This document shows, piece by piece, positions 1,656 through 64,000 of a stretch of 64,000 nt of DNA. The position numbers and the translations under genes were made by a program. The notes below the pieces were generated by a model that did no database searches, was not told the origin of the DNA, and worked only from the letters and a program-made list of their open reading frames with translations. Position 1 is the stretch's first letter. Each line of letters opens with the position of its first letter. Origin of the DNA: Mobula hypostoma (taxonomy: Eukaryota); NCBI RefSeq assembly GCF_963921235.1, contig NC_086097.1, positions 152,088,001 through 152,152,000 on the forward strand, read 5' to 3'.

Positions 1656-1704
1656 AGGAATCATCAGCTGGAGAAAAGAGACTTACCACTAGTCTTCAGG
1701 GCTT

Positions 1705-2310
1705 AGATTAGAGCATGTAGGACAGACCCAAAAGCCTATGGCATTTATGGTGGCCATGATGCCAATTTAAATTAATCCCAACTGCCTGCACGTCATTTAA
1801 ATTCATCCATCCTTTCCCTGTTAATTCATCTGTCTATATGCCTCTTAAATGTTGCTATTGTTTGTTATTTCACCTTCTCCCTTGGCAGCATGTTCCAGGC
1901 ACCTAGCCCTATTTGTGTAAATGAGTTTGCTTTTAATCCTCCTTTAATCCTTCCTCTCTCACCTTAATCCTATGCTCTCTAGTATCTGATATTTCCATTC
2001 TGGGGAAAAAAACTTAGTCTATCTACCCCATTTATGTCTCTCATAATTTTTTAAACTTCTCTGAGGTTACCCTTCAGCCTCTAATGCTCCAGAGAAAACA
2101 ATCCTGGTTTATCCAATCTCTCCTTATAGCTAATACTCTCTCTAGATCAGAAAAAAAACATGTGTAAACCTTTTATGCACTCTCCCCAAAGCCTCTATAT
2201 CCTTTCTGTAATGCAGCAAACAGAATTTCATGCTGTATTCCAAATGTGGCTGAACTAAAATTTTATACTGCTGCAACATGACTGGCCAACTTTTATACTG
2301 AAACACTTAA
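1705..2310 (-). mobile_element. Old CR1 3' fragment
   Basis: Degenerate match to CR1 3' region seen elsewhere in the window (ctccagagaaaacaatcc, tattccaaatgtggc). Confidence 0.7.
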
Positions 2311-2384
2311 TGTGCTATATTTCCACATGCAAAATCAGAGCATACTTCAAATTAAAACGGCATTTAAAAAAATACAGCTTGTAG

Positions 2385-2610
2385 TCAGCATCGTGGCATA
2401 ATAGTTAACATAGCACTATTACAGTGCCATTGATACGGGCTCAAATCGCGCTACTGTCTGTAAGGAGTTTGTATGTTCTCCCCGTGAGTTTTCTCCAGTC
2501 TCCTCCTACATTCAAAAGACGAATGCATTGGTCGGTTAATTGGTCTCGTGGGTGCAATTCGGTGTCGAAGGCTCATTTTACCATGCTGTATCTCTAAATA
2601 CTAAAAAAAA
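2385..2610 (+). mobile_element. tRNA-derived V-SINE (HE1-like)
   Basis: tRNA-like head, then V-domain gtaaggagtttgtatgttctccccgtg...ctcctcctacattcaaaagacg. Confidence 0.75.
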
Positions 2611-3954
2611 GTCAAATATCATTATTGTTTTCTATAATGGTAATCCATAAGCAATAGTCAGACCTTGGTTTGGTGAGTATTGGCTGAAAGTAAAGTGTTG
2701 CTTAGGAATCCGGAAAAAGTTCTTACTGAAATGATGCTGATAAACCATTCAGATGAATGTGCTCTTGATTTAATGTCCATCCTAAAGATATAAATATAAT
2801 AAAATGCTATCATGTCAGGAGGAACTTATTTCATATCTGCACTGTGCCTTCAGCTTCACCGTGGAGCATCAGATTCCATGAGAGTTTTAGCTGAAGCAAG
2901 TAACCTTAATGTACTGGCTTCAGGCATGTAAGTTTACTGTTCAATAAAGGGTTTTTGACATACAATAGTTTCAGGCAATCCTTTCCTGCATTTTAGAATT
3001 TCACTTTGAGTTCAAACTATAAATACAGAGAATGGAAATGCAACAAGGCAAGGCAGGCAGGAAATCTTTGAAGGGTGAAGCACAGTGTTGACTTTGCCAT
3101 GATTATTATCTGTAATAAGATCCCAGAGACACAGTATTATATCTGCAGCAAGTGTAAAGTTCAAAGCTACATTTATTCTATGTCTGTAAATATTCTTCTT
3201 TTTGTGACACTTTTTTTAAAAAAAAGTAGCTGCTACGCCATCATGTTGAGAATAAATATACAAGAACTGAAGTAACATTCACAGCTAGTGGAATTACTAT
3301 GTATGATTTAGCATCTCCTTAACTTTGGGTTTAGAGGATGGGAATTTTAACTCCATCAGATTCTGGAGCGAGGGGTGAATGGGGTGGGATCACAATAATT
3401 AACAAATGGACCCAGAATCAATATGTAATTTTAGTTTTAATGTTCCTAAATCTGCCTTCACTCTAGAATAAATTGCCTACCTAATTTTAGGGTGTCCATT
3501 GCATTAGAACACTTTCTATCTTCTTTTGACAAGCATATTTGAAGGATAAACATGCTTCTTAAAGAAAGGAAGAATTCATTTCCATCAGATTACTGGCCAT
3601 AATGTTATTACAAATGGTTGCAATAATAAGTTGCAAGGCCGACTCCAAATCCTCTGACCTCATAGTGGGGGTTCAGGTGGAGGAAATCGCGACAGAGGGA
3701 CATTCTCCTCTAATGAGAAAAGCAATGAGGTGTCTGTGCTTGTGAATCACTGGAAAGTTATCCCAGTGTTCAATGAATGTTTACTTGACCAAACTTTATA
3801 TTATTCTTAAATTCTTACATTTCTTATTATATAGTTTGGCAAAAGTCATAGCAACTTTCTCATCAGGAAAATTCCTTATGAGGAATTCCTTATCAAAATC
3901 CCTCATAAGGTGTCACATAACATTAACACTTTGCACTTAAATAGCCTCTGCTCT

Positions 3955-4999: not shown

Positions 5000-5132
5000 A
5001 GTTATAGAACATTACAGCAAAGAAATAGGCCTTTTGGCCCATCTAGTCTATATCAAGCTATTATTTGGCCTGCACCTGGACCACCGCCCTTCTTACCCCT
5101 CCCATCCATGTACCTATCCAAATTTCTCTTAA
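5000..5132 (-). mobile_element. Short CR1 3' tail fragment
   Basis: Resembles the tail of the CR1 at 40617 (cccatccatgtacctatccaaatttctctt). Confidence 0.6.
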
Positions 5133-5133
5133 T

Positions 5134-8100
5134 ATAGAAACATAGAAAACCTACAGCACAATACAGGCCCTTCAGCCCACAATGCTGTGCCAAACATGTA
5201 CTTACTTTAGAAATTAACTAGGGTTACCCATAGCCCTCTATTTTCCTAAGCTCCATGAACCTATCTAGGAGCCTCTTAAAAGACCCTATTGTATCCACCT
5301 CCACCACAGTCACTGGCAGCCCATTCCACATACTCACCACTTCCTATATAAAAAAAATCCCCTCTGTACCTACTTCCAAGCACCTTAAAACCGTGCCCTC
5401 TCATGTTACCCATTTCAGCCCCGGGAAAAAGCCTCTGCCTATCCACATGATCAATGTCTCTCATCATCTTATACATCTCTATCAGGTCATCTCTCATCCT
5501 CTGTTACTCCAAGGAGAAAAGGCCAAGTTCACTCAACCCATTCTCATAAAGAATGCTCCCCAATTCAGGCAACATCCTTGTAAATCTTCTCTGCACCTTT
5601 TCTATAGTTTCCACATCCTTCCTGTAGTGAGGTGACCAGAACTGAGCACAGAACTCCAAGTGGGGTTTGTCCAGGGTCCTATACAGTTATAGCATTAACT
5701 CTCAGCTCTTGAACTCAATCCCATTGTTGATGAGGGCCAATGGACCGTGTGCCTTCTTAACCACACAGTCAACCTGCGCAGCAGCTTTGAGTGTCCTATG
5801 GACTTGGACCCCAAGATCCCTCTGATCTTCCACACTATCAGGAGTCTTTCCATTAATACAATATTCTGCCATCATATTTGACCTACCAAAGTGAACCACC
5901 TCACACTTATCTGGGTTAAACTCCATCTGCCAGTTCTCAGCCCAGTTTTGCATCTTATTGATGTCCCACTGTAAACTCTGACAGCCCTCCACATGATCCA
6001 CAATATGCCAACCTTTGTGTCATCAGCAAATTTACTAACCCATCCTTCACTTCCACATTAGATTAGATCATGAGAACACTCAGTCCTCTTTTATTGTCAT
6101 TTAGAAACGCATACATGCATTAAGAAATGATACAATGTTTCTCCAGAGTGATATCACAGAAAACAGGACAAACCAAATACTAACACTGACTGAACCACAT
6201 AATTATAACATATAGTTACAGCAGTGCAAAACAATACCATAATTTGATGAAGAACAAACTTTGGGCACTGTAAAAATAGTCTCAAAGTCCCCAAGTCAAT
6301 CAACTTCCGAGTCCCCGATAGCAGGCGGCAAAAAGGGAGAAACTCCCTGCCATAAACCTCCAGGCACCATGAACTTGCCAATGCCTTGGAAGCAGCCAAC
6401 CACAGCCGATACTGGGTCCGTCCGTCCAAAAACTTCAAGCCTGCGACCAGCCACTCCGATACAGCCTCCCGAGCGCCATCCTCTGCCGAGCGCCTTCGAC
6501 CTTGCCCCGGCCACTGAAACATGCAAAGCCCAGGATTTTGGGGCCTTCTGCTCTGGAGATTCCGGTTACCACACAGTAGCAGCGGCAGTGAAGTGGGCAT
6601 TTCAGAAGTTTTCCAGATGTTCCTCCATACTCTCACGTCTGTCTCCATCAAATCAGAATTGTGCACGGTCCCCTACTTGACAGATAACAGATATTCATCA
6701 CCAGAGAGGCCACGCACGCTGCTGTCGTGCCGCCATCTTCTCCTCCATTCAGGTCAATTATAAAAATCACAATGAGAAGGGTCCCAGAACAGATCCCTAA
6801 GGCACACCACTGGTCACCAAACTCTACAAGCACTCATCTACAAGCACGCTTTGCCTTCTGTGGGTAAGCTAACTCTGGATCCACAAAGCAAGGTCCCCTT
6901 GGATCCTATGCCTCCTTACTTTCTCAATAAGCCTTGCATGGAGTACCTTATCAAATGCCTTGCTGAAATCTATATACACTACATCTACCAAACTACCTTC
7001 AACAATGTCTTTCATCACATCCTCAAGAAAATCAGTCAGGCTTGTAAGGCACGACCTGCCTTTCACAAAGCCATACTGACTATTCCTAATCATATTATGC
7101 CTCTCCAAATGTTCATAAATCCTGGCTCTCAGGATCTTCTCCGTCTACTTACCAAACACTGGAGTAAGACTCACTGGTCTATAATTTCCTGGGCTAACTC
7201 GACTCACTTTCTTGAATAAGGAAACAACATCTGCAACCCTCCAATCCTCTGGAATCTCTCCAGTCCCTATTGATGATACAAATATTATTGCCAGAGGCTC
7301 AGCAATCTCCTCCCTCACCTACAACAGTAGCCTGGAGTAGTATCTTATGGCTCTCCTAATTTCATTCTTAAGCTCCTTCCTGCTAGCCTTATAATCTTCT
7401 AGATCTCTGCCATTACATAGATTTTTGAACCTTTCATAAGCTTTTCTTTTCTTCTTGACTAGATTTTCAATAGCATTTGTACACTATGGTTCCTGTACCC
7501 TATCATCCTTTCCCTGTCTCACTGGAACGTATCTATGCAGAATACCAGGCAAGTATCCCTTGAACATTTACCACATTTCTGCCATACATTTCTTTGAGAA
7601 CATCTATTCCCAATTTATGCTTCCAAGTCCCTGCCTGATAGCTTCATCTTTCCCCTTACTCCAATTAAACACTTTCCTAACTTGTCTGTTCCTATCCCTC
7701 TCCAATGCAATGGTAAAGGAGATAGAATTGTGATCACTATCTCCAAAATGCTCTCCCACTGAGAGACCTGACACCCGACCAGTTTCACTTGCCAGTAACC
7801 AATCAAGTACAGTCTCTCCTCTTGTATGCGTATCTACATGTTGTGTCAGGAAACCTTCCTGAACACACCTAACAAACTCCACCCCATCTAAACCACTTGC
7901 TCTAGGGAGATGCCAATCAATATTGGGGAAATTAAAATCTCCCACTACAACAACCCTGTTATTATTGCATTTTTCCAGAATCTGTCTCCCTATCTGCTCC
8001 TCGATGTTCCTGTTACTATTGAGTGGTCTATAAAAAACATCCTATAAAGTTATTGACCCATTGCTGTTCCTAACTTCCACCCACAGTTCCTCCCTGACTT

Positions 8101-10932: not shown

Positions 10933-12809
10933 CATAGAAACGTAGAAACATAGAAAACCTACATCACAATACAGGCCATTCGGCCCACAAAGCTGTGCCC
11001 AACATGTCCTTACCATAGAAATTACTCAAGGGTTACTCATAGCCCTCTATTTTTCTGAGCTCCACGTACTTGTCCAGGAGTCTCTTAAAAGACCCTATCA
11101 TATCCACTTACACCACTGTCGCCGGCAGCCCATTCCACGCACTCAACACTCTCTGCGTAAAAAAACTTAACCCTGACATCTCCTCTGTACCTACTTCCAA
11201 GCACCTTAAACCTGTGTCCTCTCGTGCTAGCCATTACAACCCTGGGAAAAAGCCTCTGACTATCCACACAATCAATGCCTCTCATCGTTGTATACACCTC
11301 TGTCAGGTCACCTCTCATCCTCCGTTGCTCCAAGGAGAAAAGGCCGAGTTCACTCAACCTATTCTCATAAGGCATGCTCACCAATCCAGGCAACATCCTT
11401 GTAAATCTTCTCTGCACCCTTTCTACAGTTTTCACATCCTTCCTGTAATGAGGTGACCAGAACTGAGCACAGTACTCCAAGTGGGGTCTGACCAGGGTCC
11501 TATATAGCTGCAATATTACCTCTCAGCTCCTAAACTCAATCCCACGATTGATGAAGGTCAATGCACCATACGCCTTCTTAACCACAGAGTCAACCTGCAC
11601 AGCAGCTTTGAGTGTCCTATGGACTCAGACCCCAAGATCCCTCTGATCCTCCATACTGCCAAGAGTCTTACCATTAATGCTATATTCTGTCATCATATTT
11701 GACCTACAAAAATGAACCACCTCACACTTATCTGGGTTGAACTCTATCTACCAATTCTCAGCCCAGTTTTGTATCCTATCAATGTCCCACTGTAACCTCT
11801 GACAACCCTCCACACTATCCACAACACCCCTGACCTTTGCGTCATCAGCAAATTTACTAACCCAACCCTCCACTTCCTCATCCAGGTCATTTATAAAAAT
11901 CATGAAGAGTAGGGGTCCCAGAACAGATCCCTGAGGTACACCACTGGTTACTGACCTCCATGCAGAATATGACCCATCTACAACCAGTCTTTGCCTTCTG
12001 TGGGCAAGCCAGTTCTGGAACCACAAAGCAATGTCCCCTTGGATCCCATGCTTCCTTACTTTCTCAATAAGCTTTGCATGGGGTACCTTATCATATGACT
12101 CACTAAAATCCATATACGCTACATCTACGACTCTACCTTCATCAATGTGTTTAGTCACATCCTCAAGAAATTCAATCAGGCTCGTAAGGCACGATCTGCC
12201 TTTGACAAAGCCATGCTGACTATTCCTGATCATATTATACCTCTCCAAATGTTCATAAATCCTGCCTCTCAGGATCTGCTCCATCAACTTACCAACCACT
12301 GAAGTAAGACTCACTGGTCTATAATTTCCTGGTCTATCTCTACTCCCTTTCTTGAATAAGGAAACAACAGCTGCCACCCTCCAATCCTCCGGAACCTCTC
12401 CTGTCCACAGTGATGATGCAAAGATCATCACCAGAGGCTCAGCAATGTCCTCCCTCGCCTCCCACAGTACATCTTGTCCGGTCCTGGTGACTTATCCAAC
12501 TTGATGCTTTCCAAAAGCTCCAGCACATCCTCTTCCTTAGTATCTACATGCTCAAGCTTTTTGGTCCGCTGTAAGTCATCCCTACAATCGCCAAGACCCT
12601 TTTCGGTAGTGAATACTAAAACAAAATATTCATTAAGTACCTCTGCTGTCTCTGCCGGTTCCATACACACTTTTCCACTGTCACGCTTGATTGGTCCTAT
12701 TCTCTCACATCTTATCCTCTTTCTTTTCACATACTTGTAGAATTCCTTGGGGTTTTCCTTAATCCTGTCTGCCAAGGCCCTCTCATAGCCCCTTCTGGCT
12801 CTTCTGATT
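10933..12809 (-). mobile_element. CR1 LINE, 5'-truncated (young family), defective RT
   Basis: ORFs 11085-11513, 11748-12431 ([28 protein letters not shown]) and 12428-12775; tail repeats at 10933. Confidence 0.95.
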
Positions 12810-25564: not shown

Positions 25565-25851
25565 TCCCCTCCCCCTCTCTTTCTTCTAAGGCCTTCTGTC
25601 CCATGATAATCCCCCTTCTCTAGCCTTGTATCCCTTTTGCCAATCAACTTTCAAGCTCTTATATTCATCCCTCCCCCTCCTGTCTTTTCCTATCATTTCA
25701 GGTCTCCCCCCTCCCCCTCCCAGTTTCAAATCTCTTACTATCTCTTTTTTCCATTAGTCCTGATGAAGGGTCTCAACCCAAAACGTCGACTGTACTTCTT
25801 CCTATAGATGCTGCCTGGCCTGCTGCGTTCACCAGGATTTTGTGTGTGTTA
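25565..25851 (+). mobile_element. Penelope-like element pLTR fragment with degenerate hammerhead motif
   Basis: Similar to 61268-61503; agtc-ctgatga-agggtctcaaccc-Aaaacgtc-gact at 25756-25791 (GAAA changed to AAAA). Confidence 0.8.
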
Positions 25852-26127
25852 CTTGCTTTTTACTTGGCAGGTTTTGTTAAAATCAACATTACTGATTAAT
25901 ACTCTGACTGGGTTTTAAATAATTTGTGCTTCTTAACCATGCAGGGATTTAAACTGAGAAGACCTTCAGTTTGAACTTCATAGTCTTCATTACGTTCAGT
26001 CATCTTCTGAAATACAGTGTGCATGATATTGTGTAAAGGAGTCCCACCACATATTACACTAATATTGTGAAGAAAATCACAGCATCTTCACTTGGAATTT
26101 GACTGATTATCATTACATACTAATGGG

Positions 26128-38664: not shown

Positions 38665-41600
38665 GAAGAGCAAAGAGTTAAATTGTACCACAGAGGCAAA
38701 ATTCAAAAGGGTGAAGAATGCAGGACTGAGGGTGCTGTATTTAAATGTGTGTGGCATTCGGAATAAGTTGGACAAACTCGTGGTAAAATTAGAGATTGGT
38801 CTGTATGCTGTGTGGTCATCACTGAGTCATGGCTGAAAGAAGGCAATAGTTGCATCGAAAGGACAGGCAGGAAGACATAAGTGGTGGTGTGGCTCTGTTG
38901 GTAAGAGATGGAATTATATCTTTAAAATAGGTGACATAGGGTCAGAGCATGTTGGCTCTCTGTGGGTGGAGTTAAAAAATTGCAAGGATTTAAAAAAAAA
39001 CACACTATGCGAATCATATACAGCCTTTCAAAGAGTAGCCAAGACGTGGGGTTGAGATTGCAAAGGGAGCTGGAAAAGGCATGTAATAAGGGTAATGACA
39101 CAATTGTAATAAGGTACTCGATATGCAAGGGGATTGATAAAATCAGGTTGGTGTCAAATCGCAAGCAAAGGAATTTGTTGAATGCCTACGAGATAGTCTT
39201 TTAGAGCAGCTTGTGCTTGAGCATACTCAGGGAAAGGCTATCTTAAAGTGGGCATTGTGTACTAACCCAGATCTTATTCGGGAGCTTAATGAGCTTAAGG
39301 GAAAGGAACCCTGAGGAGACAGTGATCATAATATGATTGAATTCATACTGCAATTTCAGAGGGAGAAGCATAACTCACATGTATCAGTATCATAATGGAA
39401 TAAAGGGATTAAAAAGTCATGAGAGAGGAGTTTGCCCGGGTGGATTGGAGAAGGATACTGGCGGGGATGACAGAAGAGAAGAGATGGCTGAAGATTCTGG
39501 GAATAGTTCACAAGACTCAGGATAGATATATCCCACAGAGAAAGAAGTTCTCAAATGTCAGGGCCAGGCAACCATGGCTGACAAAGGAAGTTAAGGACTG
39601 CATAAAAGCCAAGGAAAGGGCACATAGGGTAGCAAAAGTGAGTGGAAAGTTGGATGATTGGGAGCTTTTAAAATCCAACAAAAGGCTATTAAAAAGAGCT
39701 ATAAGAAGGGAAAGGATGAAATATGAGTGCAAAGTAGCCAATAATATAAAGCAGGATACCAGAAGATTTTTCAGTTGTATACAGAGTAATAGGGAGGTGA
39801 GAGTTGATATTGCACCACTGGAAAATGATGCTGGTGAGGTAGTCATAGAGGACAGAGAAATGCCAGATGAACCTACAGGTACTTTGTATCAGTCTTCACT
39901 GTGGAAGACACTAGCAGTGTGTCAAAGATCCATGAGTGTCAGGGAGCAGGAGTGAGTGCCATTGCTATTACAAAGGAAAAAGTGCTAAGAAAGTGCTAAG
40001 CAAACTCAAATGTCTTCAGGTGGGTAAGTCACGTGGACCAGATGGACTACATCCCAGAGTCCTGAGAGAGGTTGCTAAAGAGGTAACGGATGCATTGGTC
40101 ATAATCTTCCAAGAATCACTTGATTCTGGCATGGTCCCGGAGGACTGGAAGATCATAAATGTCGCTCCACTCTTTAAGAAGGGAGGAAGGCAAAAGAAAG
40201 GAAATTATAGGCCAGTTATCCTAACCTCAGTGGTTGGGAAAATATTGTAGTCCATTATTAAGGATGAGGTTTCAAAGTACTTGGAGACTAATGATAAAAT
40301 CAGTCAAAGTTTCTGTAAAGGGAAATCTTGTTGGACAAATCTGTTGGAGATCTTCGAGGAAGTAACAAACAGGGTGAACAAAGGAGAGACAGTGGATGTC
40401 ATTTACTTGGATTTTCAGAAGGCGTTTGATAAGGTGCTACACGAGGCTGCTTAACAAAAGAAAATCCTATGATGATACAGGAAAGATACTGGCATGAATA
40501 GCGGAATGGCTGACAGGCAGGAGGCAGCAAGTGGGAATAAAGGGGGCCTTTCCCAATTGGCTGCTGGTGACTAGTAATGTTCCTCTGGTCAGTATTGGGA
40601 CCTTTGCTGTTCACATTAGAAACCATAGAAAGACCACAGCACAGAAACAGGCCTTTTGGTCCTTCCTGGCTGCGCCGAACCATTTTCTGCCTAGTCCCAC
40701 TGACCTGCACACGGACTATATCCCTCCATACACCTCCCATCCATGTATCTGTCCAATTTATTCTTAAATGTTAAAAAAGAACCCACATTTACCACCTCGT
40801 CTGGCAGCTCATTCCATACTCCCACCACACTCTGTGTGAAGAAGCCCCCCTTAATATTCCCTTTAAACTTTTCCCCTCTCACCCTTAACCCATGTCCTCT
40901 GGTTTTTTTTCTTCCTTTGCCTCAGTGGAAAAAGCCTGCTTGCATTCACTCTATCTATACCCATCATAATTTTATATACCTCTATCAAATCTCCCCTCAT
41001 TCTTCTACGCTCCAGGGAATAAAGTCTTAACCTATTCAACCTTTCTCTGTAACTAAGTTTCTCAAGTCCCGGCAACATCCTTGTAAACCTTCTCTGCACT
41101 CTTTCAACCTTATTTATATCCTTCCTGTAATTTGGTGACCAAAACTGAACACAATACTCCAGATTCGGCCTCACCAATGCCTTATACAACCTCATCATAA
41201 CATTCCAGCTCTTATACTCAATACTTTGATTAATAAAGGCCAATGTACCAAAAGCTCTCTTTATGACCCTATCTACCTGTGACGACACTTTTAGGGAATT
41301 TTGTATCTGTATTCCCAGATCCCTCTGTTCCACTGCACGCCTCAGTGCCTTACCATTAACCCGGTATGTTCTACCTTGGTTTGTCCTTCCAACATGCAAT
41401 ACCTCACATTTGTCTGTATTAAACTCCATCTGCCATTTTTCAGCCCAGTTTTCCAGCTGGTCCAAGTCCCTCTGCAGGCTCTGAAAACCTTCCTCGCTGT
41501 CTACTACACCTCCAATCTTTGTATCATCAGCAAATTTGCTGATCCAATTTACCACATTATCATCTAGATCATTGATATAGATGACAAATAATAATGGACC

Positions 41601-43597
41601 CAGCACTGATCCCTGTGGCACACCACTAGTCACAGGCCTCCACTCGGAGAAGCAATTCTCTACTACCACTCTTTGGCTTCTTCCATTGAGCCAATGTCTA
41701 ATCCAATTTGCCACCTCTCCATGTATACCTAGCGACTGAATTTTCCTAACTAACCTCCCATGCGGGACCTTGTCAAAGGCCTTACTGAAGTCCATGTAGA
41801 CAATATACACTGCCTTCCCTTCATCCACTTTCCTGGTAACCTCCTTGAAAAACTCCAATAGATTGGTCAAACATGACCTACCACGCACAAAACCATGTTG
41901 ACTCTCCCTAATAAGTCCCTGTCTATCCAAATGCTTGTAGATTCTGTCTCTTAGTACTCCCTCCAATAACTTACCTACTACTGACGTTAAACTTACTGGC
42001 CTATAATTTCCCGGATTACTTTTCGATCCTTTTTTAAACAACGGAACAACATGAGCTACTCTCCAATCCTCCAGCACCTCACCTGTAGACAGCGACATTT
42101 TAAATATTTCTGCCAGGGCCCCTGCAAATTCAACACCAGTCTCCTTCAAGGTCTGAGGGAACACCCTGTCAGGTCCTAGGGATTTATCCACTTTAATTTT
42201 CCTCAAGACAGCAAGCACCTCCTCCTTTTCAATCTGTACAGTTTCCATGATCTCACTACTTGTTTCCCTTAATTCCATAGACTTCATGCCAGTTTCCTTA
42301 GTAAATACAGTCGCAAAAAACCTATTTAAGATCTTGCACATTTCTTTTGCTTCCACACATAGCCGACCACTGATCTTCAAGAGGACCAATTTTAATCCCT
42401 TACAATCCTTTTGCTCTTAATATACCTCTAAAAGCTCTTTGGATTATCCTTCACTTTGACTGCCAAGGCAACCTCATGTCTTCTTTTAGCCCTCCTGATT
42501 TCTTTCTTAAGTATTTTCTTGCACTTCTTTTACTCCTCAAGCACCTGATTTACTCCCTGTTTCCTATACATTTCATACAACTCCCTCTTCTTCTTATCAG
42601 AGTTGCAATATCCCTTGAGAACCAAGGTTCCTTATTCCTATTCACTTTGCCTTTAATCCTGACAGGAACATACAAACTCTGCACTCTCAAAATTTCCCCT
42701 TTGAAGGCTTCCCACCTACCGATCACATCTTTGCCAGAGAACAACCTGCCCCAATCCATGCTTTTTAGATCATTTCTCATTTCTTCAAATTTGGCCTTCT
42801 TCCAGTTCAGAACCTCAAGCCTTTGTTTGTCAATTGATTAGATAATGGAATTGATGGCTTTGTGGCAAACCTTGCAATTGATACAAAAATGGGTGGAGGG
42901 GAAGGTAGTACTGAGGAAGCAATGTAATTGCAGTAGGATTTAGACATTGGAAGAATGGGCAAAAAAGTGGCAGATAGAATTCAACATTTGGAAATGGTAT
43001 GATAATGCATTTTGCTAAAGGAACAATAGTGCAGACTATTATCTAAATAGGGAGAAGATTCAAACATCAGAGCTGCATAGGGACTTGGGAGTCCTTACGC
43101 AAGACTCCTGCGCAATGTTACGCAAGGTTAATTTACAGGTTGAGTCTGTGGTAAAGTAGGCAAATGCAATGTTGACATTATTCCAAGGAAATAGAATATA
43201 AAGGCAAGGAGATAACGCTGAGTCTTTATAAGACACTTGTTGGACCGCATTTGTGCCCCATATCTCAGAAAGGATGTGTTGCGATTGGAGAAAGTCGAAA
43301 GGAGGTTCACAAGGATAATACTGGGAATGAAGTGTTAACAGATGAGGAACGTTTGGCAGCTTTAGGCCTGTACTCACTGGAATTTAAAAGAATGCGGGCG
43401 ACCTCATTGAAATCTACTGAATGTTGAAAGGAGAAGATAGGATGGATGTGGAGAGAATGTTTCTTCTAGTGGGGGGTATCCAGAACTGGAGGGCACAGCC
43501 TCAAAATTGAGAGGCAACCTTTTAGAACAGAGGTACAGAGGACTTTTCCTTTAGCCAGAGAGTAGTAAATCTGTGAAATGCTCTGCCACAGAGTGAG
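38665..43597 (+). mobile_element. CR1 ORF2 remnant (38665-40616 and 42819-43597), split by a younger antisense CR1
   Basis: Endonuclease remnants (ITESWL, SDHN); ORFs 39419-39955 and 39936-40250 (GPDGLHPRVL, NYRPV); RT resumes at ~42819. Confidence 0.88.
40617..42818 (-). mobile_element. Young 5'-truncated CR1 with an open 508-codon RT frame
   Basis: ORF 40863-42389 has all RT motifs ([37 protein letters not shown]); frameshifts near both ends; no endonuclease or ORF1. Confidence 0.95.
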
Positions 43598-43605
43598 GTC
43601 TTATT

Positions 43606-44267
43606 GAGGAGGAGAAGATGGCGCGACGCAGCGCGCACGGCCTCTCCAGTGATGAATATCTGTAGTCTATTAAGTAGGAGGGCATGCACAATTCTGATTT
43701 GATGGAGGCAGAAGTGAGAGCACGGAGTAACATCTGGTGAAACTTCTGAGATGCCTGTTTCGTTGCCGCTGCTACTGTGTGATCCGAAATCTCCGGAGGG
43801 GAAGGCCCCGAATCCTCTGCTTTGCCTGTTGCTTGGCGGCCGGAGCCGGGGTCGAAGTGCTTGGCAGAGATGGTGCTCGGTGTCGGAGGCTCGAAGTTTT
43901 TGGACAGACTCATAGTCGGACTGTGGTCGGGTGCTTCCAGGATGCTGCATCGGCAAGTTTGTGGCGCTGGAAGCTCATGGCAGGGAGAGTTTCTTCATTC
44001 TACTGTCTGCATGAGATGTTGGGGCTATCGGGACTTTAAGACTTTTTTTTACCGTGCCCATGGTCTGTTCTTATCAAATTACAGTATTGCTTTGCACTGT
44101 TGTAACTATATGTTATAATTATGTGGTTTTTGTCAGTTTTTAGTCTTGGTCTGTCTTGTGTTTCTGTGATATCATACCGGAGGAACATTGTATAGTTTTT
44201 GATGCATGCATTTCTAAATGACAATAAACTCTGACTGAGTGTCCTCATAATCTAAATCTAAACCTAA
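43606..44267 (+). mobile_element. Non-autonomous AAGATGGCG-headed retroposon, copy 3
   Basis: Starts gaggaggagaagatggcgcgacgcagcgcgc; ends gacaataaa...cataatctaaatctaaacctaa. Confidence 0.88.
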
Positions 44268-44864
44268 TAGTTGTCTATTAGTTCATTAAGTCAGTGATAT
44301 ATGTGGTTATCAATTTAAGGATTTGAAAGAGTTCCAATTACAATTTAAGAAGGAGCTTATTGCTATGTATAAACATACATTAAACGCTTAAACAATAAAG
44401 GAATTTCAGTTCATCATTGCAAATTTTTTTTTAATTTTCAGGTCATATATTTAAAATCAGATGTTGTCTGAAGTTAATAAGAATCTTTTGCATTTGAAAG
44501 TATAATTTCAAGTCCTATGAACATATGGTAGAATAAACAACATTCATTGCTTTGTATTCAAGAAAAGATTTTCAGAAAAATAATCAGAAAATAAAATACT
44601 GCAGGTTCTGGAAACCTGAAATGAAAGGAGGGAACTCTTGAAATACTCAGCAACTGTGGACACTTTCAGGATACTGACTTCTTGAACATACTTACTTCTC
44701 AATAGACGTTGAATATTTCCAGCATTTTCTTTTTTTCTTTCTTCTACAGTTTGTTGTTTTTTTTTTAAGTTTGTCTACACTGCGTAGAATGCAGTGGCTG
44801 GGCCCAAGTGGTTTAGTTCCCCAGAGGGAATGTGACCAAGCAGGCAGCCAGATTGTTTGAGAGT

Positions 44865-46215
44865 CTGAATAAACTGGATCACTAAATTTGTGGATGACAC
44901 CAAGATTAGGGTTAAAGAGGGTGGCAAGGAAAACTATCAAAGCTTGCAGCGGGACTTGGACCAAATGGAAAAAAAATGGCTGAAAAAATAGCAGGTGGAA
45001 CTTAAGGCAGTCAATTGTGAGGTATGCTCTTTGGAAGGGGCAACCAGGGTAAGTTTTATATGTTGAGCAGTAGGGCATTGAGCAGTGCAGTAGAACAGAG
45101 GAATCTGGGAATATACATTCGTAATTCCTTGAAAGTGGTGTCATAGGTAGATAGGGTCTTAAAGAAAGCATTTGGCAGATTGGCCTAGCCCTGTGGGGGA
45201 CGTGGCTTATTTTGATTGTCGGAAGTTGCTTCCATTCTGATTGTTTAGTTTAGAAACTGCAGCTGCTTTACCCATTGGTTAGTTGCCTGCTATCCAGTTT
45301 CAAATATCCTACATATATAGGGAGCGCGTGTGGGAGGTTATTTCTGGCATATTTGTTTAAGACAAGCAGTGCACATGACCATTGGGAAGGTATGCTCTGT
45401 GAATACTTAAGTAAATATATTTGTTGAATATTCAGATTTGAAGTTTCTGTAACTTGGGGAACATGAATGTTTGGTTGAATTTTTACTGTTTGTAAGTGAT
45501 TAATACACTTATTCATGGTCAGTGTTCTCTGCCTCACTTGCCAGACCTGTGAACCTCATTCAAGATTACAGACTTTCATAAATCAATATACTGAGTACAG
45601 GCGTTAGGATGTTATGTTGAAATTTTATTAGATGTTGGTGAGGACTAATTTGGAGTATTGTGAGTAGTTTTCAACACCTACATACAGGAAAGGTATAAAT
45701 AAGATTGACAAAGTGCAGAGAAAATTTAAGGATGTTGCACAGGACTTGAGGACCTGAGTTATAGGGAAAGGTTGAATAGGTTAGAACTTCATTCCCCAGA
45801 AAGTAAATGATTGAGGGGAGATTTGATGGAGGTATTCAAAAACTTTAAGAATATAGATAGGGTAAATGCAGGTAGTTTTTTTTCCCACTGAAATTGTGTG
45901 AGACTACGAGTTGAGGACTTGGGTTAAAGATGAAAGGTGAAATATTTAAGGGGAACATGAGGGGGAATATTTAAGGGGAACGTAAGGGGGGATTCTTCTC
46001 TCAGAGGGTGGTGAGTGTGTGGAATGAGCTGCCAGAGCATGTGGTGGATGTAGGTTTGATTTCAACTTTTAAGAAAAACTTAGATAGGTTCATAGATGGG
46101 AGGGGTAAGAAGGGATATGGTCTGGATGCAGGGCAATGGGACTAAGCAGGTTAATGGTCAATATGGACTATATAGATTGAAGGGCCTGTTTCTGTGCTGT
46201 AGTGTTCTATGGCTT
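44865..46215 (+). mobile_element. CR1 3' region, interrupted at 45187-45570
   Basis: Decayed relative of the 40617 element (aactggatcactaaatttgtggatgacaccaagatt; tail gggcctgtttctgtgctgtagtgttctatgg). Confidence 0.85.
45187..45570. mobile_element. Probable degraded solo LTR inserted in CR1
   Basis: CR1 ttggcct|ttcataaatc is split by ~384 bp ending ATTACA; flanks GCCT/GACT fit a 4-bp TSD with one mismatch; 5' TG not intact. Confidence 0.5.
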
Positions 46216-49003: not shown

Positions 49004-51817
49004 TGTAATATTTGAGTTGTTGATTAAGCATTCTTGTTCATTTAAATAATTCACTACAAGTTGTATGTAAAAATATATGAATTGCATACATCATGACGCT
49101 ACTGCATGATATGCACACTCCTCGCTTAAAGTAAACACAAAGATAGACTCGCATGTCAGACGCCTGTGTCTTCCTTTGAATTAGTTTAATATTTTGAAAT
49201 TACAAAACAGCAGTGGTGCTGAGGTATTTTTAAAATGAACCCAAGACTGCTACCAACCTGTTGAAACATAGCAAGAATTTTGAGTTAAGATAAAGTGCAG
49301 CAAGGACTGGTGAGTAAAGAAAAAGTGCAATACATGCTGAGACAGGTGAATTAAAAAATGTCAGAAAATCGAAGAACTTGGGATTCATAAAGACTGATTA
49401 CTGGGTGATACTAATCATTAAAAAAAAGCAGAAATGGCTGGCTACATCTTAATGACCGTCAAGATCGATTCCACAAGAGGTAATTGGCTCATGTATACTA
49501 GGTAATTGAACAGTATTTTGAAGCAAATAAAATAACCAATGAGAAACAAATACTAATTTTTCTAAGTGCATTAGGTTTTTAAGGCATACAGATTGCTTCA
49601 AAATTTGTCTGCTCCAACCAAACCAGCAGAAATGAGCTTTGTTGCAATTGTGAAGGTAATGCAGGGACACTTAGAACAGAAGCCATTGTTGATTGCAAAA
49701 CATTTTAGGTTTCATAAATGGAATCAAAAGGAAGGGAAGTCTATTTCAGTGTATGTGGCTGAATTGAAGAGATAGTCTGAGCATTGTCAGTTCAGTGATG
49801 GGCTGAGAGATTATTTAACTTGTGGAATCTTACAAGCAAGCATTCAAAAATGGTTCCTAACTGAATCACAACTTGCATTTAAGAAAGCATTTGAAATTGC
49901 TGTTTCAATGGAAACCACAGACAAAGATGCAATTAAATTGCAGTCAGGAATGAAAGCGATCATGAACAAAATTGCAGTGTCTGAACAGAAAAAGCTCTGC
50001 CAAATAAATTGTGTTACTGTTGTGGCAGGGGTTCACATACACCAGAGCAATGCAGATTTAAACTTGAAATGTGTAGAAAATACAACAAAGTAGGACACAT
50101 ACAAAGAGTATGCTGGGCAGACAAAAATAAATGGACTTTACAGGGAAGAGAAAGAAATATACAAAAAAATCAAGTTGCAGTCTGAAAAAGAACAGTAATC
50201 TGCATGCAGTTGGTGAAAAATCTGAGAATGATGAGAGGGCCACAGGAGTGGGTAGCCTTGAGATTTACAGTGTGAAAACTAGCAATAGACAACCAATATG
50301 GCTTATACCAGAAGTAGATGGCAAATTAATTAAAATGGAATTGGACACTTTCAGTTGTTTCAGTCATTCCACAATATCAGCTTGAACGGCATTTCAAGAT
50401 ACTGAACCTGCAGATTTCCAATTAAGAACTTGCACTGGAGAAAAGATAACTCCTATGGGAATGACATTTGTAAAAGTGAAATACAATAACCAACAAGCCA
50501 TACTGAGCTTGTATGGTAAAAACAGAAGGGCCAGCATTCAGGAAGTGTGATTAGCTAAGAAAACTACAATTTGATTGAAGCTCCATCCACCCTTTGCATG
50601 CCACATCCCTAGCGATAAAGCCAACTGAAAATAAAATAAGAAAGGCACTGGACCATGCCAAATCTGGCTCTGTGCTGTACACCATGAACCATTGTCCAAC
50701 AAAGGGAAAATTAGTGTTGGTGCCAACCTCTGCCCCTCTAGTTGGAAAGCATATTGGACCAAGGAAGAAACATACTGCTCAAAGGAGTCATGACAGTGGC
50801 AAAAGCAGTGTTCCAACTGCAACCATTTTATGGAAACGTATCTGAGAAAGCTTTGGATATGTTAATCGGGCAATTACTTTCAAAATATGGCTTGACTCTA
50901 AGCTGGAAGAGAGTTCACGGATCTTCTGGAAAGTTGCACGCATTTGGCTTTTGAGAGTATAAAGAACTAGAATCTACTCCACATGCATTAAGGTTTATTG
51001 CATGAACTTCAACTGGGAGACAAAAAGCTGCTTGTTAAAGTAGATGCAACAACCGAGGCCCAGCTGGATGAACGCAAGGCCAAAAAGAAAGAAGTCAATG
51101 GAGATACAAAAACAGATGATTCATCAGATGATGTTGTGGATGTGGAAACCAAGAGGAGAGTTCGTATCTTAAAGGGAGCAATGAATAATAGAATACGCCA
51201 GTGAACTAAATACACCTTCCCAAGATCAAGATGCACAAACTGGAAGCAAAAGGAAGAAGAAAAAATATGTCCAGAGACGTCTGAACCACTTCTTGCATAC
51301 TCAGAATCAACTCCTACAACCACCACAGAAGAGGTCCCAGAACCTGAGATTGTTTTCATAGGTACAAGTCTCAGATGCCAAGCAGAGTGATTCTCCATTG
51401 TTAAAGGCATTATCCCACAAGGGTAAGAAACCCTCCACAGCAATTAAATCTTTAGGCCTGAATGGGATAATTTAAAATTTACTGTACTGTGGAGGTCTAT
51501 ATATAGAAGATGCATCATATAATATGCTATGTATATAGATGAGAAGTATTCTCTATTGTGTTGGTTTATATCTAAGCAGGGAGGATTGTTGTGCATTTAA
51601 TATTTCAGTAATATTTGAGCAATCTTGTAAATATGTTGATTAAGTATTCTTCATTTAAATAATTTACTACAGATTATGTCAAAATCCACGATTTGCATAT
51701 GTGATGATGCTACCATATGATACATGCGTGCCTCACTTAAAGTAAACACGAAGTTAGACTCACATTTTGGATTTGTATGTCTTCCTTTGAATTAATTTAG
51801 TATTTTGAAATTACAAC
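49004..51817 (+). mobile_element. Non-autonomous Gypsy-like LTR retrotransposon (gag/protease remnants, pol deleted) carrying a host gene fragment
   Basis: Two homologous LTRs (49004-49212, missing its first ~20 nt; 51587-51817); PBS-like tggtgctgagg at 49214; PPT aagcagggagga before 51587; gag remnant (FRFHKWNQKEGKSISVYVAELKR); Cys/His knuckle remnant ~50010-50115; protease LIKMELDT. Confidence 0.88.
50714..51263 (+). pseudogene. RBM25: Processed fragment of RNA-binding motif protein 25 (N-terminal RRM region) inside the LTR element
   Basis: Joined frames read VLVPT..LVGKHIGPRK / GNVSEKALDMLIGQLLSKYGLTLSWKRVHGSSGKLHAFGF*EYKELEST.HALR / LHELQLGDKKLLVKVDATTEAQLDERKAKKK...DVETKRR..ILKGA / EYASELNTPSQ, colinear with vertebrate RBM25 as I recall it (GNISEKASDMLIRQLLAKCGLVLSWKRVQGASGKLQAFGFCEYKEPESTLRALRLLHDLQIGEKKLLVKVDAKTKAQLDEWKAKKK); one stop and at least three frameshifts. 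Confidence 0.93.
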
Positions 51818-60420: not shown

Positions 60421-61048
60421 AAGGCATTAAGCTCATTTGGGAGTGAAACCTTGTTACTTCATATGTCTTTTGGCTTTACTTTCTAGGTAAGAGAATTCAA
60501 GCCCTGTTACAGCTGCTGAGCATCCTGCACATGTGTAGTGACTTTCTGGAGATCATACTAGAACCTCTTGTATCTTACTTGGTCGCCAGACCTGAACACC
60601 ACTGATCTGGCCCTCAGCAGACTGCGGATCTCTTAGCTCATCCTGGGCTTCTGCTGGGGGAAGATTCTAAATGATTTGGTGGGGACCTACTTTATAATGT
60701 CTGTGACACCGTGGTGTATCTGTGCCGAATATTTCTGGAGATGAAAGAATGAAGGAATAGTGAACAATGTGAAAGGAAGAGATAGTGTAAATCTCCAATA
60801 AATGTGATGAAACTTCTGAGTTTTGTCACAGAACAAGAAGAAATACCAATAATGTCATCATTGTAAAAGAAAAAATATGTTTTAAATTTGACAAGAATAG
60901 GAGGCAGCAAATGGTTCTACAGAAGTTGGAGAAACTGAGGAGTAAAATGTACTCAACAGGAATTCTGCAGATGCTGGAAATTCAAGCAACATACATCAAA
61001 GTTGCTGGTGAACGCAGCAGGCCAGGCAGCATCTGTAGGAAGAGGTGC

Positions 61049-61084
61049 AGTCGACGTTTCAGGCCGAGACCCTTCGTCAGGACT
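61049..61084 (-). ncRNA. Minimal type I hammerhead ribozyme motif (Penelope-associated)
   Basis: Minus strand: agtc-CTGACGA-agggtctcggcct-GAAA-cg-TC-gact. Confidence 0.8.
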
Positions 61085-61405
61085 AACTGAAGGAAGAGTG
61101 AGTAAGGGATTTGAAAGTTGGAGGGGGAGGGGGAGATCCAAAATGGTAGGAGAAGACAGGAGGGGGAGGGATGGAGCCAAGAGCTGGACAGGTGATTGGC
61201 AAAATGGGGATACGAGAGGATCATGGGACAGGAGGTCCGGGAAGAAAGACAAGGAGGAGGGGGTGGGTGATCCTCTCGTATCCCCTTTTACCTATCACTT
61301 GTCTAGCTCTTGGCTCTATCCCTCCCCCTCCTGTCTTCTCCTATCATTTTGGATCTCCCCCTCCCCCTCCAACTTTCAAATCCCTTACTCACTCTTCCTT
61401 CAGTT

Positions 61406-61441
61406 AGTCCTGACGAAGGGTCTCGGCCTGAAACGTCGACT
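61406..61441 (+). ncRNA. Minimal type I hammerhead ribozyme motif (Penelope-associated)
   Basis: Stem I agtc(61406-09)/gact(61438-41); core CTGACGA 61410-16; stem II agg/cct; GAAA 61430-33; palindromic ACGT in place of stem III; predicted cut after C61437. Confidence 0.8.
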
Positions 61442-61544
61442 GCACCTCTTCCTACAGATGCTGCCTGACCTGCTGCGTTCACCAGCAACTTTGATGTGTG
61501 TTGTAATAAAATGTACTATTTTTTTGGGATTTATGGGCCACAAA

Positions 61545-62149: not shown

Positions 62150-64000
62150 AAACAAAGAAACATTGATACATAGAAATATAGGAAACCTACACCACAATAC
62201 AGGACCTTCAGGCCACAATGCTGTGCCGAACATGTACTTACTTTGAAAGTACCTAGGGTTACCCATAGCCCTCTATTTTTCGAAGCTCCATGTATCTATC
62301 CAAGAGTCTCTTGAAAGACCCTACTGTATCTGCCTCCACTACTGTCACCACCAGCCCATTCAACGCACACACCACTCTCTGCATTTAAAAAAAAACTACC
62401 CCTCAAATCTCCTCTGTACCTACTTCCAAGCACCTTAAAACTGTATCCTCTCGTGTTAGCCATTACAGCCCAGGGAAAAAGCCTCTGACTATCCACACGA
62501 TCAATGCCTCTTATCACCTTGTACACCTCTATCAGGTCATCTCTCATCCTCTGTTGCTCCAAGGAGAAAAGGCCAAGTTCACTCAACCTATTCTCATAAG
62601 GCATGCTCCCCAATCCAGGCAACATCCTCGTAAATCTCCTCTGCACTCTTTCTATAATTTCCACATCTTTCCTGTAGTGAGGTGACCAGAACTGAGCACA
62701 GAACTCCAAGTGGGGTCTGACCAGGGTCCTATATAGCTGTATCATTACGTCTCGGCTCTTGAATTTAATCCCATTGTTGATGAAGGCCAATGTACCGTAT
62801 GCTGCCTTAACCATACAGTCAACCTACGCAACAGCTTTGAGTTTCCTATGGACTTGGACCCCAAAATCCCTCTGATCCTCCACACTGCCAGGAGCCTTAC
62901 CATTAATACTATATTCTGCAATCATATTTGACCTACCAAAATGAACCACCTCACACTTATCTGGGTTGAACTCCATCTGCCACTTCTCAGCCCAGTTTTG
63001 CATGCGATCAATGTCCCACTGTAACCTCTGACAACCCCCCACACTATCCACAACACCAGCAATCTTTGTGTCATAAGCATATTTACTAAACCCATCCCTC
63101 CACTTCCACATCCAGGTCATTTATAAAAATCACAAGGAGGAGGGGCTCCAGAACAGATCCCAAGGCACACCACTGGACACAAACTTCCATGCAGAATATG
63201 ACCTGGCTACAACCATTTTGCTTTCTGTGGGCAAGCCAACTCGGCATCCACAAAGCAAGGTCCTCTTGGATCTCATATCTTCTTACTTTCTCAATAAGCC
63301 TTGCATGGGGTACCTTGTCAAATGCCATAGACACCACATCTACTGCTCTACCTTCATCAATGTGTTTAGTCACATCTTCAGAAAATTCAATCAGGCTCGT
63401 AAGGCATGACCTACCTTTGACAAAGCCATGCTGACTATTCCTAATCATATTATGCCACTCCAAATGTTCATATACCCTGCCTCTCAGGATCTTTTCCATC
63501 AACTAACCAACCACTGAAGAAAGACTCACTCTTCTATAATTTCCTGGGCTATCTCTACTCCCTTTCTTGAATAAGGGAACAATATCTGCAACCCTCTAAT
63601 CCTCCAGAACCTCTCCTGTCCCCGGTGATAATGCAAAGATCATTGCTAGAGGCTCAGTAATCTCCTCCCTCACCTCCCAGAGTAGCCTAGGGTATATCTC
63701 TTCCAGTCCTGATGACTTATCCAACTTGATGCTTTCCAAGAGCACCAGCACACCCTCTTTCTTAATGTCTATATGCTCAAGCTTTTCAGTCCGCTGTAAG
63801 TCATCCCTACAATTGCCAATGTCCTTTTCCGTAGTGAATACTGAAGCAGAGCATTCATTAAGTACCTCCGCTGTCTCGTCCAGTTCTATACACACTTTTC
63901 CACTATCACACTTGATTGGTTCTATTCTCTCACATCTCATCCTCTTGCTCTTCACATACTCGTAGAATGCCTTGGGGTTTTTCTTTAATCCTGCTCACCA
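62150..64000 (-). mobile_element. CR1 LINE (young family), runs off the window edge
   Basis: ORFs 62296-62814, 62824-63120, 63086-63502, 63596-63955, closely similar to 10933-12809. Confidence 0.95.

What the first reader, a model, noticed from the sequence alone, without database searches (positions are those of the whole stretch)
50714..51263. Host splicing-factor RRM (RBM25) captured inside a Gypsy LTR retrotransposon in place of pol
Seen: between two homologous LTRs with PBS and PPT, gag and protease remnants are followed by ~550 bp that translate, across frameshifts, into a continuous RBM25 segment from VLVPT through the RRM to EYASELNTPSQ, with no intron-sized gap. Retroelement-like sequence then resumes; RT, RNase H and integrase are absent. 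Known: LTR elements can transduce host mRNA by RT template switching. Inferred: an mRNA-derived capture that may have been amplified as a non-autonomous family, and when young could have expressed a Gag/PR-RRM chimera or RBM25-matching RNA. This copy is dead (TGA at 50952-50954, at least three frameshifts). I know of no description of such an element in chondrichthyans but cannot search for one.
Basis: partly seen in the sequence, partly recalled or inferred. Interest (0 to 1): 0.88.

Follow-up and report, generated by a model that had tools for sequence, protein, structure and literature searches.

The report
Mass-amplified retrotransposon carrying RBM25 fragment
A crippled jumping gene swapped its copying enzymes for a spliced piece of the host's RBM25 messenger RNA and was then copied to roughly two thousand places in this fish genome, a known kind of accident at an unusually large scale, with the captured piece apparently carried as dead cargo.

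Summary
Confirmed, and larger than described. Window 49004-51816 is a dead Gypsy LTR element in which about 2.5 kb of pol (RT, RNase H, integrase core) is replaced by spliced RBM25 mRNA (50656-51267; 83.6% identical to the host exons; five exon junctions crossed). RT- and integrase-bearing relatives show 7-nt and 9-nt microhomologies with the mRNA at the two switch points, and the 5' fusion is in frame. The 5' junction occurs 913 times in the genome at up to 2 mismatches (control 0), about 2,000 copies by extrapolation. Copies have distinct 5-bp target duplications and also occur in runs from three other organisms. They radiate star-like, carry nested deletions of a once longer cargo, and decay neutrally; I found no selection on the RRM. 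Best reading: one reverse-transcriptase template-switch capture, then amplification in trans by helper elements, with the cargo as passenger. The mechanism is published (Tan 2016). The scale exceeds the cases I read (1-9 copies), and my searches found no report for RBM25. This scan noted the same family before at another locus, and sibling families with other cargo.

The parts
49004..49212 (+). 5' LTR, with deletions near its start (about 240 bp in sister copies, TG...CA ends)
49214..49224 (+). decayed primer-binding-site-like sequence; primer tRNA not identified
   Evidence: position after the LTR in sister copies; ARAGORN test negative
49434..50180 (+). broken gag with zinc-knuckle region, K02A2.6-like Gypsy single ORF
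   Evidence: tblastn of P0134/P0125, 50-63% identity
50185..50655 (+). broken aspartic protease and the first residues of the RT region, up to the 5' switch point
   Evidence: RT-bearing relatives run on from here into RT
50656..50665 (+). last 10 nt of RBM25 exon E3 (my label); holds the 7-nt microhomology with the parent pol; in-frame fusion
50666..50713 (+).
   Evidence: host exon with AG/GT ends at G000:C1:99832633-99832586
50714..51102 (+). RBM25 exons E4 (50714-50882), E5 (50883-50940) and E6 (50941-51102), spliced; RRM domain; TGA at 50952, two frameshifts
51103..51267 (+). RBM25 exon E7 plus a short purine-rich stub left by deletions in E7-E10; ends at the 9-nt microhomology of the 3' switch point
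51268..51455 (+). C-terminal tail of the pol ORF after the integrase, out of frame with RBM25
   Evidence: integrase-bearing relatives L090-L099 lead into the same tail
51574..51586 (+). polypurine tract
51587..51816 (+). 3' LTR, last bases damaged

Best explanation
A spliced RBM25 mRNA was co-packaged in a particle of a K02A2.6-like Gypsy element. Reverse transcriptase jumped from the end of the integrase region into RBM25 exon E10 at a 9-nt match. It copied about 1.07 kb of mRNA and jumped back to the protease/RT boundary at a 7-nt match, dropping about 2.5 kb of pol. The product kept both LTRs, PBS, PPT, gag and protease. It was transcribed as a non-autonomous element and copied in trans by RT and integrase from helpers, in an old burst, to about 2,000 sites. 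Deletions in the purine-rich RE region shortened the cargo, and the flanks appear to have been exchanged with co-packaged helpers. The cargo rode as a passenger; every copy examined is dead. Shown: structure, exon junctions, microhomologies, frame, copy count, TSDs, neutral decay. Inferred: co-packaging, RT jumps, trans-mobilisation, helper recombination, passenger status.
For: Five exon junctions in the window and up to eight in long copies (L021 reaches E10). Exact 7-nt match at the 5' switch in 3 of 4 RT-type loci fetched; exact 9-nt match at the 3' switch in 4 of 10 integrase-type loci; chance about 1e-3 and 1e-4 on a simple model. 913 genome matches to the chimeric junction vs 0 for the reversed control, and 1,953 for the parent-type junction. 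29 of 29 sister loci are collinear across the junction. 5-bp flanks match 5/5 in 2, 4/5 in 4 (one after a 1-nt shift) and 3/5 in 2 of 10 loci with both ends; 2 unresolved; all different. Star-like tree, 24 of 28 inner branches open. Non-shared changes neutral, pN/pS 0.83-1.15, with 58 stops. In 15 copies, variants shared by 3 or more copies are third-position-biased in gag (45% vs 32% of singletons, p=0.01) but not in the cargo (36% vs 33%, p=0.65). A cargo-free derivative lacking the integrase core also gave 2,893 first-look candidates, so cargo is not needed to multiply.
Against: Host and copies differ at 22 shared sites, 21 synonymous and 1 nonsynonymous. That is 0.13-0.16 per synonymous site, somewhat more than the copies' own drift (median tip 0.082; LTR-LTR K2P/2 = 0.108). 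The gap could hide a period in which the founder kept the RRM intact. The 5' fusion is in frame, and the measurable long (354), mid (144) and modal short (45 nt) forms differ by multiples of three; another long copy (332) and many short ones do not fit. The 3' match lies in purine-rich sequence, so its chance value is understated. The 30 main loci were the best hits to the window's cargo, which biases cargo diversity down; a protease-selected sample gave pairwise p 0.181 vs 0.156. Helper recombination rests on region-wise diversity and on a tail variant seen in 2 of 30 chimeric and 2 of 10 parent loci.
Confidence: 0.74

Rival explanations
1. Same capture and amplification, but the cargo was useful to the element. 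The in-frame Gag-PR-RRM polyprotein released an RRM inside the particle that aided RNA packaging or export, or the host-matching RNA sheltered the element from small-RNA silencing because targeting it would also hit an essential gene.
For: In-frame 5' fusion just past the protease; stop-free frames cross it in natural copies, e.g. L010, L019, L023, L030. The RRM exons E4-E6 survive in all 30 loci while the RE-rich part was deleted. 21 S: 1 N shared differences, with a synonymous excess over copy drift. The chimera makes up 913 of 2,866 matches to the two junction patterns.
Against: No third-position bias among shared cargo variants, unlike gag. Variants carried by 4-8 copies have pN/pS 1.09. 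21:1 is also what purifying selection on the host gene alone gives, and the host tip is short (0.036). The 30 loci were found with the RRM exons as query, so retention of E4-E6 is partly built in. Cargo-free derivatives multiplied too.
Confidence: 0.16
2. The founder arose at DNA level: a break in an integrated element was patched with RBM25 cDNA or mRNA by microhomology-mediated repair; the family then amplified as above.
For: Microhomology at both ends with loss of the intervening pol fits microhomology-mediated repair as well (established knowledge).
Against: It needs a free RBM25 cDNA and a 2.5-kb loss inside one element. Double template switching gives exactly this structure and is documented across animals (PMC5131818, sections 6 and 9). 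A cargo-free derivative rejoins at the same 3' site, which suggests an RT jump hot spot.
Confidence: 0.07
3. An ordinary LINE-made RBM25 retrocopy landed in an LTR element, or the copies spread by segmental duplication.
For: The window is LINE-rich. One near-identical pair, L010/L015 (1.2% apart, same contig), looks like a DNA duplication.
Against: The cargo ends inside exon E10, far from the mRNA 3' end, with no poly(A) and no TSD of its own; pol is replaced, not interrupted. Copies have their own 5-bp TSDs and unrelated flanks on many contigs.
Confidence: 0.03

Closest known systems
LTR-mediated retrocopies of animals (Tan et al. 2016, PMC5131818; abstract, sections 6 and 9, and passages read)
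   Same: Partial spliced mRNA between LTR-element halves; microsimilarity at both switch points; no poly(A) or own TSD; secondary retroposition as a non-autonomous element; in-frame fusion.
   Different: Their re-mobilised cases have 'more than one insertion site'. Here one capture gave at least 913 junction matches (about 2,000 copies), with nested deletion forms and signs of flank exchange. Old and dead rather than young or polymorphic.
Maize Bs1 (as described in PMC5131818; original papers not read)
   Same: Host exons inside an LTR element; all copies share the switch points.
   Different: One to five copies, three parental genes, a plant, and proposed to make a functional hybrid protein; no constraint seen here.
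Crocodilian CrocERV31-nectin3 and CrocERV29-KIT-ligand (PMC4299795; passages read)
   Same: Old vertebrate LTR-element lineages that carry a captured host mRNA in several copies and in more than one species.
   Different: Retroviral, not Gypsy; cargo replaces env or sits beside it with pol kept; six and nine copies; purifying selection reported on the cargo.
Pepper NLR retroduplication by LTR elements (PMC5664825; abstract only)
   Same: LTR retrotransposons raise the copy number of a host gene on a large scale.
   Different: Plant, many different genes, yields functional resistance genes; here a single junction-defined dead family.
K02A2.6-like Gypsy polyproteins of fishes (P0121, P0125, P0134)
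   Same: Single ORF, gag-PR-RT-RH-IN order, similar C-terminal tail; 50-63% identity over gag, 64-68% over an RT piece of a parent-type locus.
   Different: About 850 residues of pol replaced by RBM25. The clade name Mag is recalled, not tested by a tree.

Membership tests
LTR-mediated retrocopy (Tan 2016) | introns removed (exon junctions crossed) | tested here: met
   five junctions over introns of 5805, 3425, 1738, 2778 and 4833 nt (the last intron is 4824 nt after the E6 end was corrected)
LTR-mediated retrocopy (Tan 2016) | flanked on both sides by one discontinuous LTR element | tested here: met
   gag-PR upstream, pol tail-PPT-LTR downstream; parent-type loci continue at both points
LTR-mediated retrocopy (Tan 2016) | microsimilarity at the switch points | tested here: met
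   7 nt exact at 5' (3 of 4 RT-type loci), 9 nt exact at 3' (4 of 10 integrase-type loci)
LTR-mediated retrocopy (Tan 2016) | no poly(A) tail or TSD around the insert | tested here: met
   insert ends about 28 nt into exon E10 and runs straight into the pol tail
LTR-mediated retrocopy (Tan 2016) | co-transcribed from the LTR | not testable with these tools
   implied for the founders by re-mobilisation; only contigs could be laid
non-autonomous LTR retrotransposon family | many copies with the same internal structure and independent TSDs | tested here: met
   913 junction matches; distinct 5-bp TSDs
non-autonomous LTR retrotransposon family | lacks RT/IN; related elements bearing them exist in the genome | tested here: met
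   RVT_1 and RNase H hits in parent-type loci, integrase C-terminus loci leading into the same tail; no intact helper was sought or seen
Ty3/Gypsy | pol order PR-RT-RH-IN in the parent | tested here: met
   parent-type loci L084, L087 and L089 are collinear with P0125 in that order
Ty3/Gypsy | PBS complementary to a tRNA 3' end | tested here: inconclusive
   a decayed site sits 1-2 nt after the 5' LTR in sister copies; ARAGORN found 0 genes in the 2 loci tested
Gypsy Mag clade (name recalled) | placement in an RT tree | not tested
   only similarity to proteins named K02A2.6-like
functional retrogene / domesticated chimera | intact ORF under purifying selection | tested here: not met
   window copy broken; non-shared pN/pS 0.83-1.15 over 30 copies; 30 of about 2,000 copies examined, so a rare intact copy is not excluded

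The most novel reading that the evidence does not exclude
The capture was adaptive for the element. An in-frame RRM, released by the element's own protease inside the particle, or an RNA that the host could not silence without hitting essential RBM25, let this chimera out-replicate its kin. Together with the SUDS3, USP35 and MYH16 families noted by this scan, one Gypsy lineage would have repeatedly used host mRNA as cargo on a scale of thousands of copies. That would make LTR amplification, not LINE activity plus host selection, the source of the most-copied 'retrocopies' in these fishes.
Probability: 0.16. Interest if true: 0.85.

Novelty: new variant of a known kind. Interest (0 to 1): 0.62.

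Why it matters
It shows that a single LTR-mediated mRNA capture can itself become one of the abundant repeats of a vertebrate genome, two to three orders of magnitude above the copy numbers in the cases I read. That matters in three ways. First, annotation: such copies can be mistaken for gene-family expansions, or lost to repeat filters (the VGP pipeline drops candidates that are 40% or more repeat-masked). Second, interpretation: a 2026 preprint lists SUDS3 among the top retrocopy parents in cartilaginous fishes and ties retrocopy numbers to non-LTR elements and later selection. Families like this offer a different, testable cause. Third, the family is a fossil of an ancient mRNA. It preserves an RBM25 isoform with a 48-nt cassette exon that has not changed in the host since capture, and it gives a large sample in which to study RT template switching, nested deletion and helper recombination.

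Tried and rejected
A Pfam PWI search of the genome found two other PWI genes, not RBM25; the host gene was found with the C-terminal part of P0001. Pfam and PDB searches with the window's own broken pieces were blank. The four RT-type loci did not reach the pol tail within 4 kb, apart from a rearranged integrase-less form in L085, so the 3' parent junction came from separate loci. Protease-to-cargo distances were too scattered to give a frame (18 values, no mode); the frame was read at the junction itself and from natural open frames. The primer tRNA test failed. The window's flanks could not be joined into one pre-insertion repeat. The tree does not resolve the length classes. No RNA holder listed; the one guessed-RNA run laid (X21) may hold DNA and says nothing on expression. 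Runs with small word shares that I did not lay are no evidence. A sequence look-up and a word look-up of earlier findings returned nothing. Rows dropped: L015 (near-duplicate of L010) (codon part; diversity part; distances; distances); it was kept.

Full report
Observation. The window is G000:C1:152088001-152152000 of a 3.48-Gb genome. It holds a 2.8-kb LTR element at 49004-51816. The LTRs match over 49018-49205 / 51634-51816 at 77.7%. A polypurine tract precedes the 3' LTR, and a decayed PBS-like site follows the 5' LTR. Gag and protease remnants align with single-ORF K02A2.6-like Gypsy polyproteins of fishes (P0125, P0134). The middle is RBM25. A sister copy gave 284 hits, and the 120 listed are RBM25 or unnamed/hypothetical proteins. 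RRM_1 passes the Pfam cut-off in 3 of 8 sister-copy frames tested. The window's TGA (50952) and three frameshifts are as reported.

Spliced origin. I found the host gene 52 Mb away on the same contig and delimited ten exons, all with AG/GT ends (labels E2-E10 are mine). The window's insert aligns to the joined exons at 83.6% over 605 nt, from 50656. It covers the last 10 nt of E3, a 48-nt cassette exon E3a, then E4, E5, E6 and E7, crossing five junctions whose introns are 1.7-5.8 kb. The extra 58 nt were missed because none of the 120 fetched RBM25 proteins shows the cassette peptide in a simple motif test. In 44 copies the cassette shows 0 shared differences from today's host exon, against 20 synonymous and 1 nonsynonymous in E4-E7. 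Zero in 48 nt has P of 0.002-0.008 if the host sequence were neutral, so it looks like a real, constrained exon.

A family. A DNA search with the insert gave 2,850 first-look candidates, of which 40 were scored, at 79-82% identity apart from the window itself. Of these, 30 loci were fetched, the window included. All 29 sister loci align from the protease side through the cargo. In 27 of 30 the match to the mRNA starts in the last part of E3, and in 16 at exactly the same base; the other three start within E3a. A 25-base pattern across the junction matches 913 places at up to 2 mismatches (reversed control 0); the parent-type pattern matches 1,953. Only 20 of 45 fetched chimeric loci pass that filter, and the window does not, so the family is about 2,000 copies (1,350-3,000 by binomial arithmetic). 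Of 10 loci with both ends, 5-bp flanks match 5/5 in two, 4/5 in four (one after a 1-nt shift) and 3/5 in two; two are unresolved. All differ from each other, so these are separate integrations. One pair (L010/L015, 1.2% apart) is a later DNA duplicate. Runs from three other organisms and studies (X5, X9, X17) each laid 39,000-45,000 contigs on the element. Listed pieces bridge the 5' junction (X17) or exon junctions (X5, X9), and one X17 contig runs from the 3' LTR 283 nt into the unique flank, which suggests this very insertion predates the split from that organism.

Switch points. I fetched 20 of the 39 other protease-region hits (13 chosen because the hit stopped short, 7 others): 15 continue into RBM25, 4 into RT, and 1 is a deletion. 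Parent and mRNA share TGCCACA exactly at the junction in 3 of the 4 RT-type loci, and the fusion is in frame, just inside the RT region. Stop-free frames cross it in natural copies such as L010, L019, L023 and L030. I fetched 10 of 150 integrase C-terminus hits. Eight lead into the same tail by motif match, and four carry GAGAAGAAA, which also lies about 28 nt into host exon E10 where the long copies leave the mRNA. This junction is out of frame with the pol tail. On a simple model the chances are 1e-3 and 1e-4; the second is understated because the region is purine-rich. By P0125 numbering about 850 codons of pol are gone. There is no poly(A).

History. Long copies (L021, L024, partly L029) keep E8-E10, four loci are intermediate, and the rest, including the window, are short; the sample is biased toward short forms by the query. 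The founder therefore held about 1.07 kb of mRNA and lost the RE-rich part in steps. The cargo tree is a star: 24 of 28 inner branches are open, the host tip is 0.036, the median copy tip 0.082, and the window 0.14. LTR-LTR K2P averages 0.217 in 11 copies and is 0.245 in the window. The burst is old and came soon after capture. In 15 copies with all parts, gag is more diverse than the cargo (pairwise p 0.224 vs 0.157; variants in 4 or more copies 78/694 vs 25/584 columns), and its shared variants favour third positions. A tail variant occurs in 2 of 30 chimeric and 2 of 10 parent loci. This fits one cargo moved among helper backbones by further template switches. The sample was picked on cargo similarity, however; a protease-picked sample has cargo p 0.181, so I hold this as likely, not shown.

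Did the cargo matter? Over 196 codons and 30 copies, non-shared changes are neutral (374 synonymous, 1,028 nonsynonymous, 58 stops; pN/pS 0.83-1.15). That is expected of any dead copy. More telling, variants shared among copies show no codon-position bias in the cargo while they do in gag. A cargo-free derivative lacking the integrase core multiplied to a similar order (2,893 candidates). Against this, the 22 differences common to the copies versus the host are 21 synonymous to 1 nonsynonymous, and their rate (0.13-0.16 per synonymous site) slightly exceeds the copies' drift. Host purifying selection explains the ratio, but without an outgroup a constrained founder is not excluded. The measurable length classes also differ by multiples of three, which codon-periodic RE repeats would tend to give anyway. 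I put passenger at 0.74 and useful cargo at 0.16.

Comparison with what is known. It works like, and meets the tested features of, the LTR-mediated retrocopies of Tan et al. 2016 (PMC5131818; abstract, sections 6 and 9, passages). That paper predicts secondary retroposition, reports it at more than one site for two fly cases, and gives one to five copies for maize Bs1. Crocodilian ERVs with nectin3 or KIT-ligand have six and nine copies (PMC4299795, passages). Pepper NLRs expanded through LTR elements (PMC5664825, abstract). The Greenland shark preprint notes retrogenes flanked by LINEs or LTRs (10.1101/2024.09.09.611499, passages). A 2026 preprint lists SUDS3 and four others as top retrocopy parents in cartilaginous fishes, with no RBM25 in its main text (10.64898/2026.06.26.734816, passages; supplements closed). 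The VGP paper does not mention RBM25 either (PMC13320880, passages). Nine searches of the held library (listings only) showed no report of this family; subscription journals and Repbase/Dfam were not searchable.

Verdict. A real feature and a new variant of a known kind: the mechanism is published, while the thousand-copy scale, the nested deletion series and the fossil splice form are what is unusual. Interest 0.62.

Noticed in passing
G000:C1:99832633-99832586 (L039:8586-8633, - strand): 48-nt in-frame RBM25 cassette exon, not seen in 120 fetched RBM25 proteins by a motif test, unchanged in the host since capture; the element preserves an ancient isoform that includes it.
   Followed up: partly
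L085:1120-1500; L088; L089: A second abundant non-autonomous derivative (2,893 first-look candidates): keeps RT and RNase H, lacks the integrase core, and rejoins the pol tail at the same purine-rich site as the RBM25 family; possibly an RT jump hot spot.
   Followed up: partly
L044:2650-2890 and L047:2396-2636: Two solo LTRs of this family 36 and 66 kb upstream of the RBM25 start codon; L047 has a perfect 5-bp TSD. Probably reflects abundance.
   Followed up: no
L015 and L010 (G000:C96): Two copies 1.2% apart, 1.2 Mb from each other; L015 has an internal tandem duplication of the cargo.
   Followed up: no
window 60987-61503: Near-perfect inverted repeat, 222-nt arms 96% complementary with 73 nt between, made of a SINE-like repeat also found at 25566-25855; a foldback duplication.
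   Followed up: no
window 40866-42416 (-): 517-aa stop-free frame in a LINE-like repeat, the longest in the window; related copies at 5131-7345, 10933-12767 and 62161-63993.
   Followed up: no
G000:C12:101537467-101616061: Eight matches of a 14-base motif, several spaced about 1.6 kb apart; ARAGORN found no tRNA in the two tested. An unexplained tandem cluster.
   Followed up: partly
L074 (G000:C12:48367990-48368590): A derivative that jumps from the protease/RT boundary almost directly to the PPT and 3' LTR.
   Followed up: no
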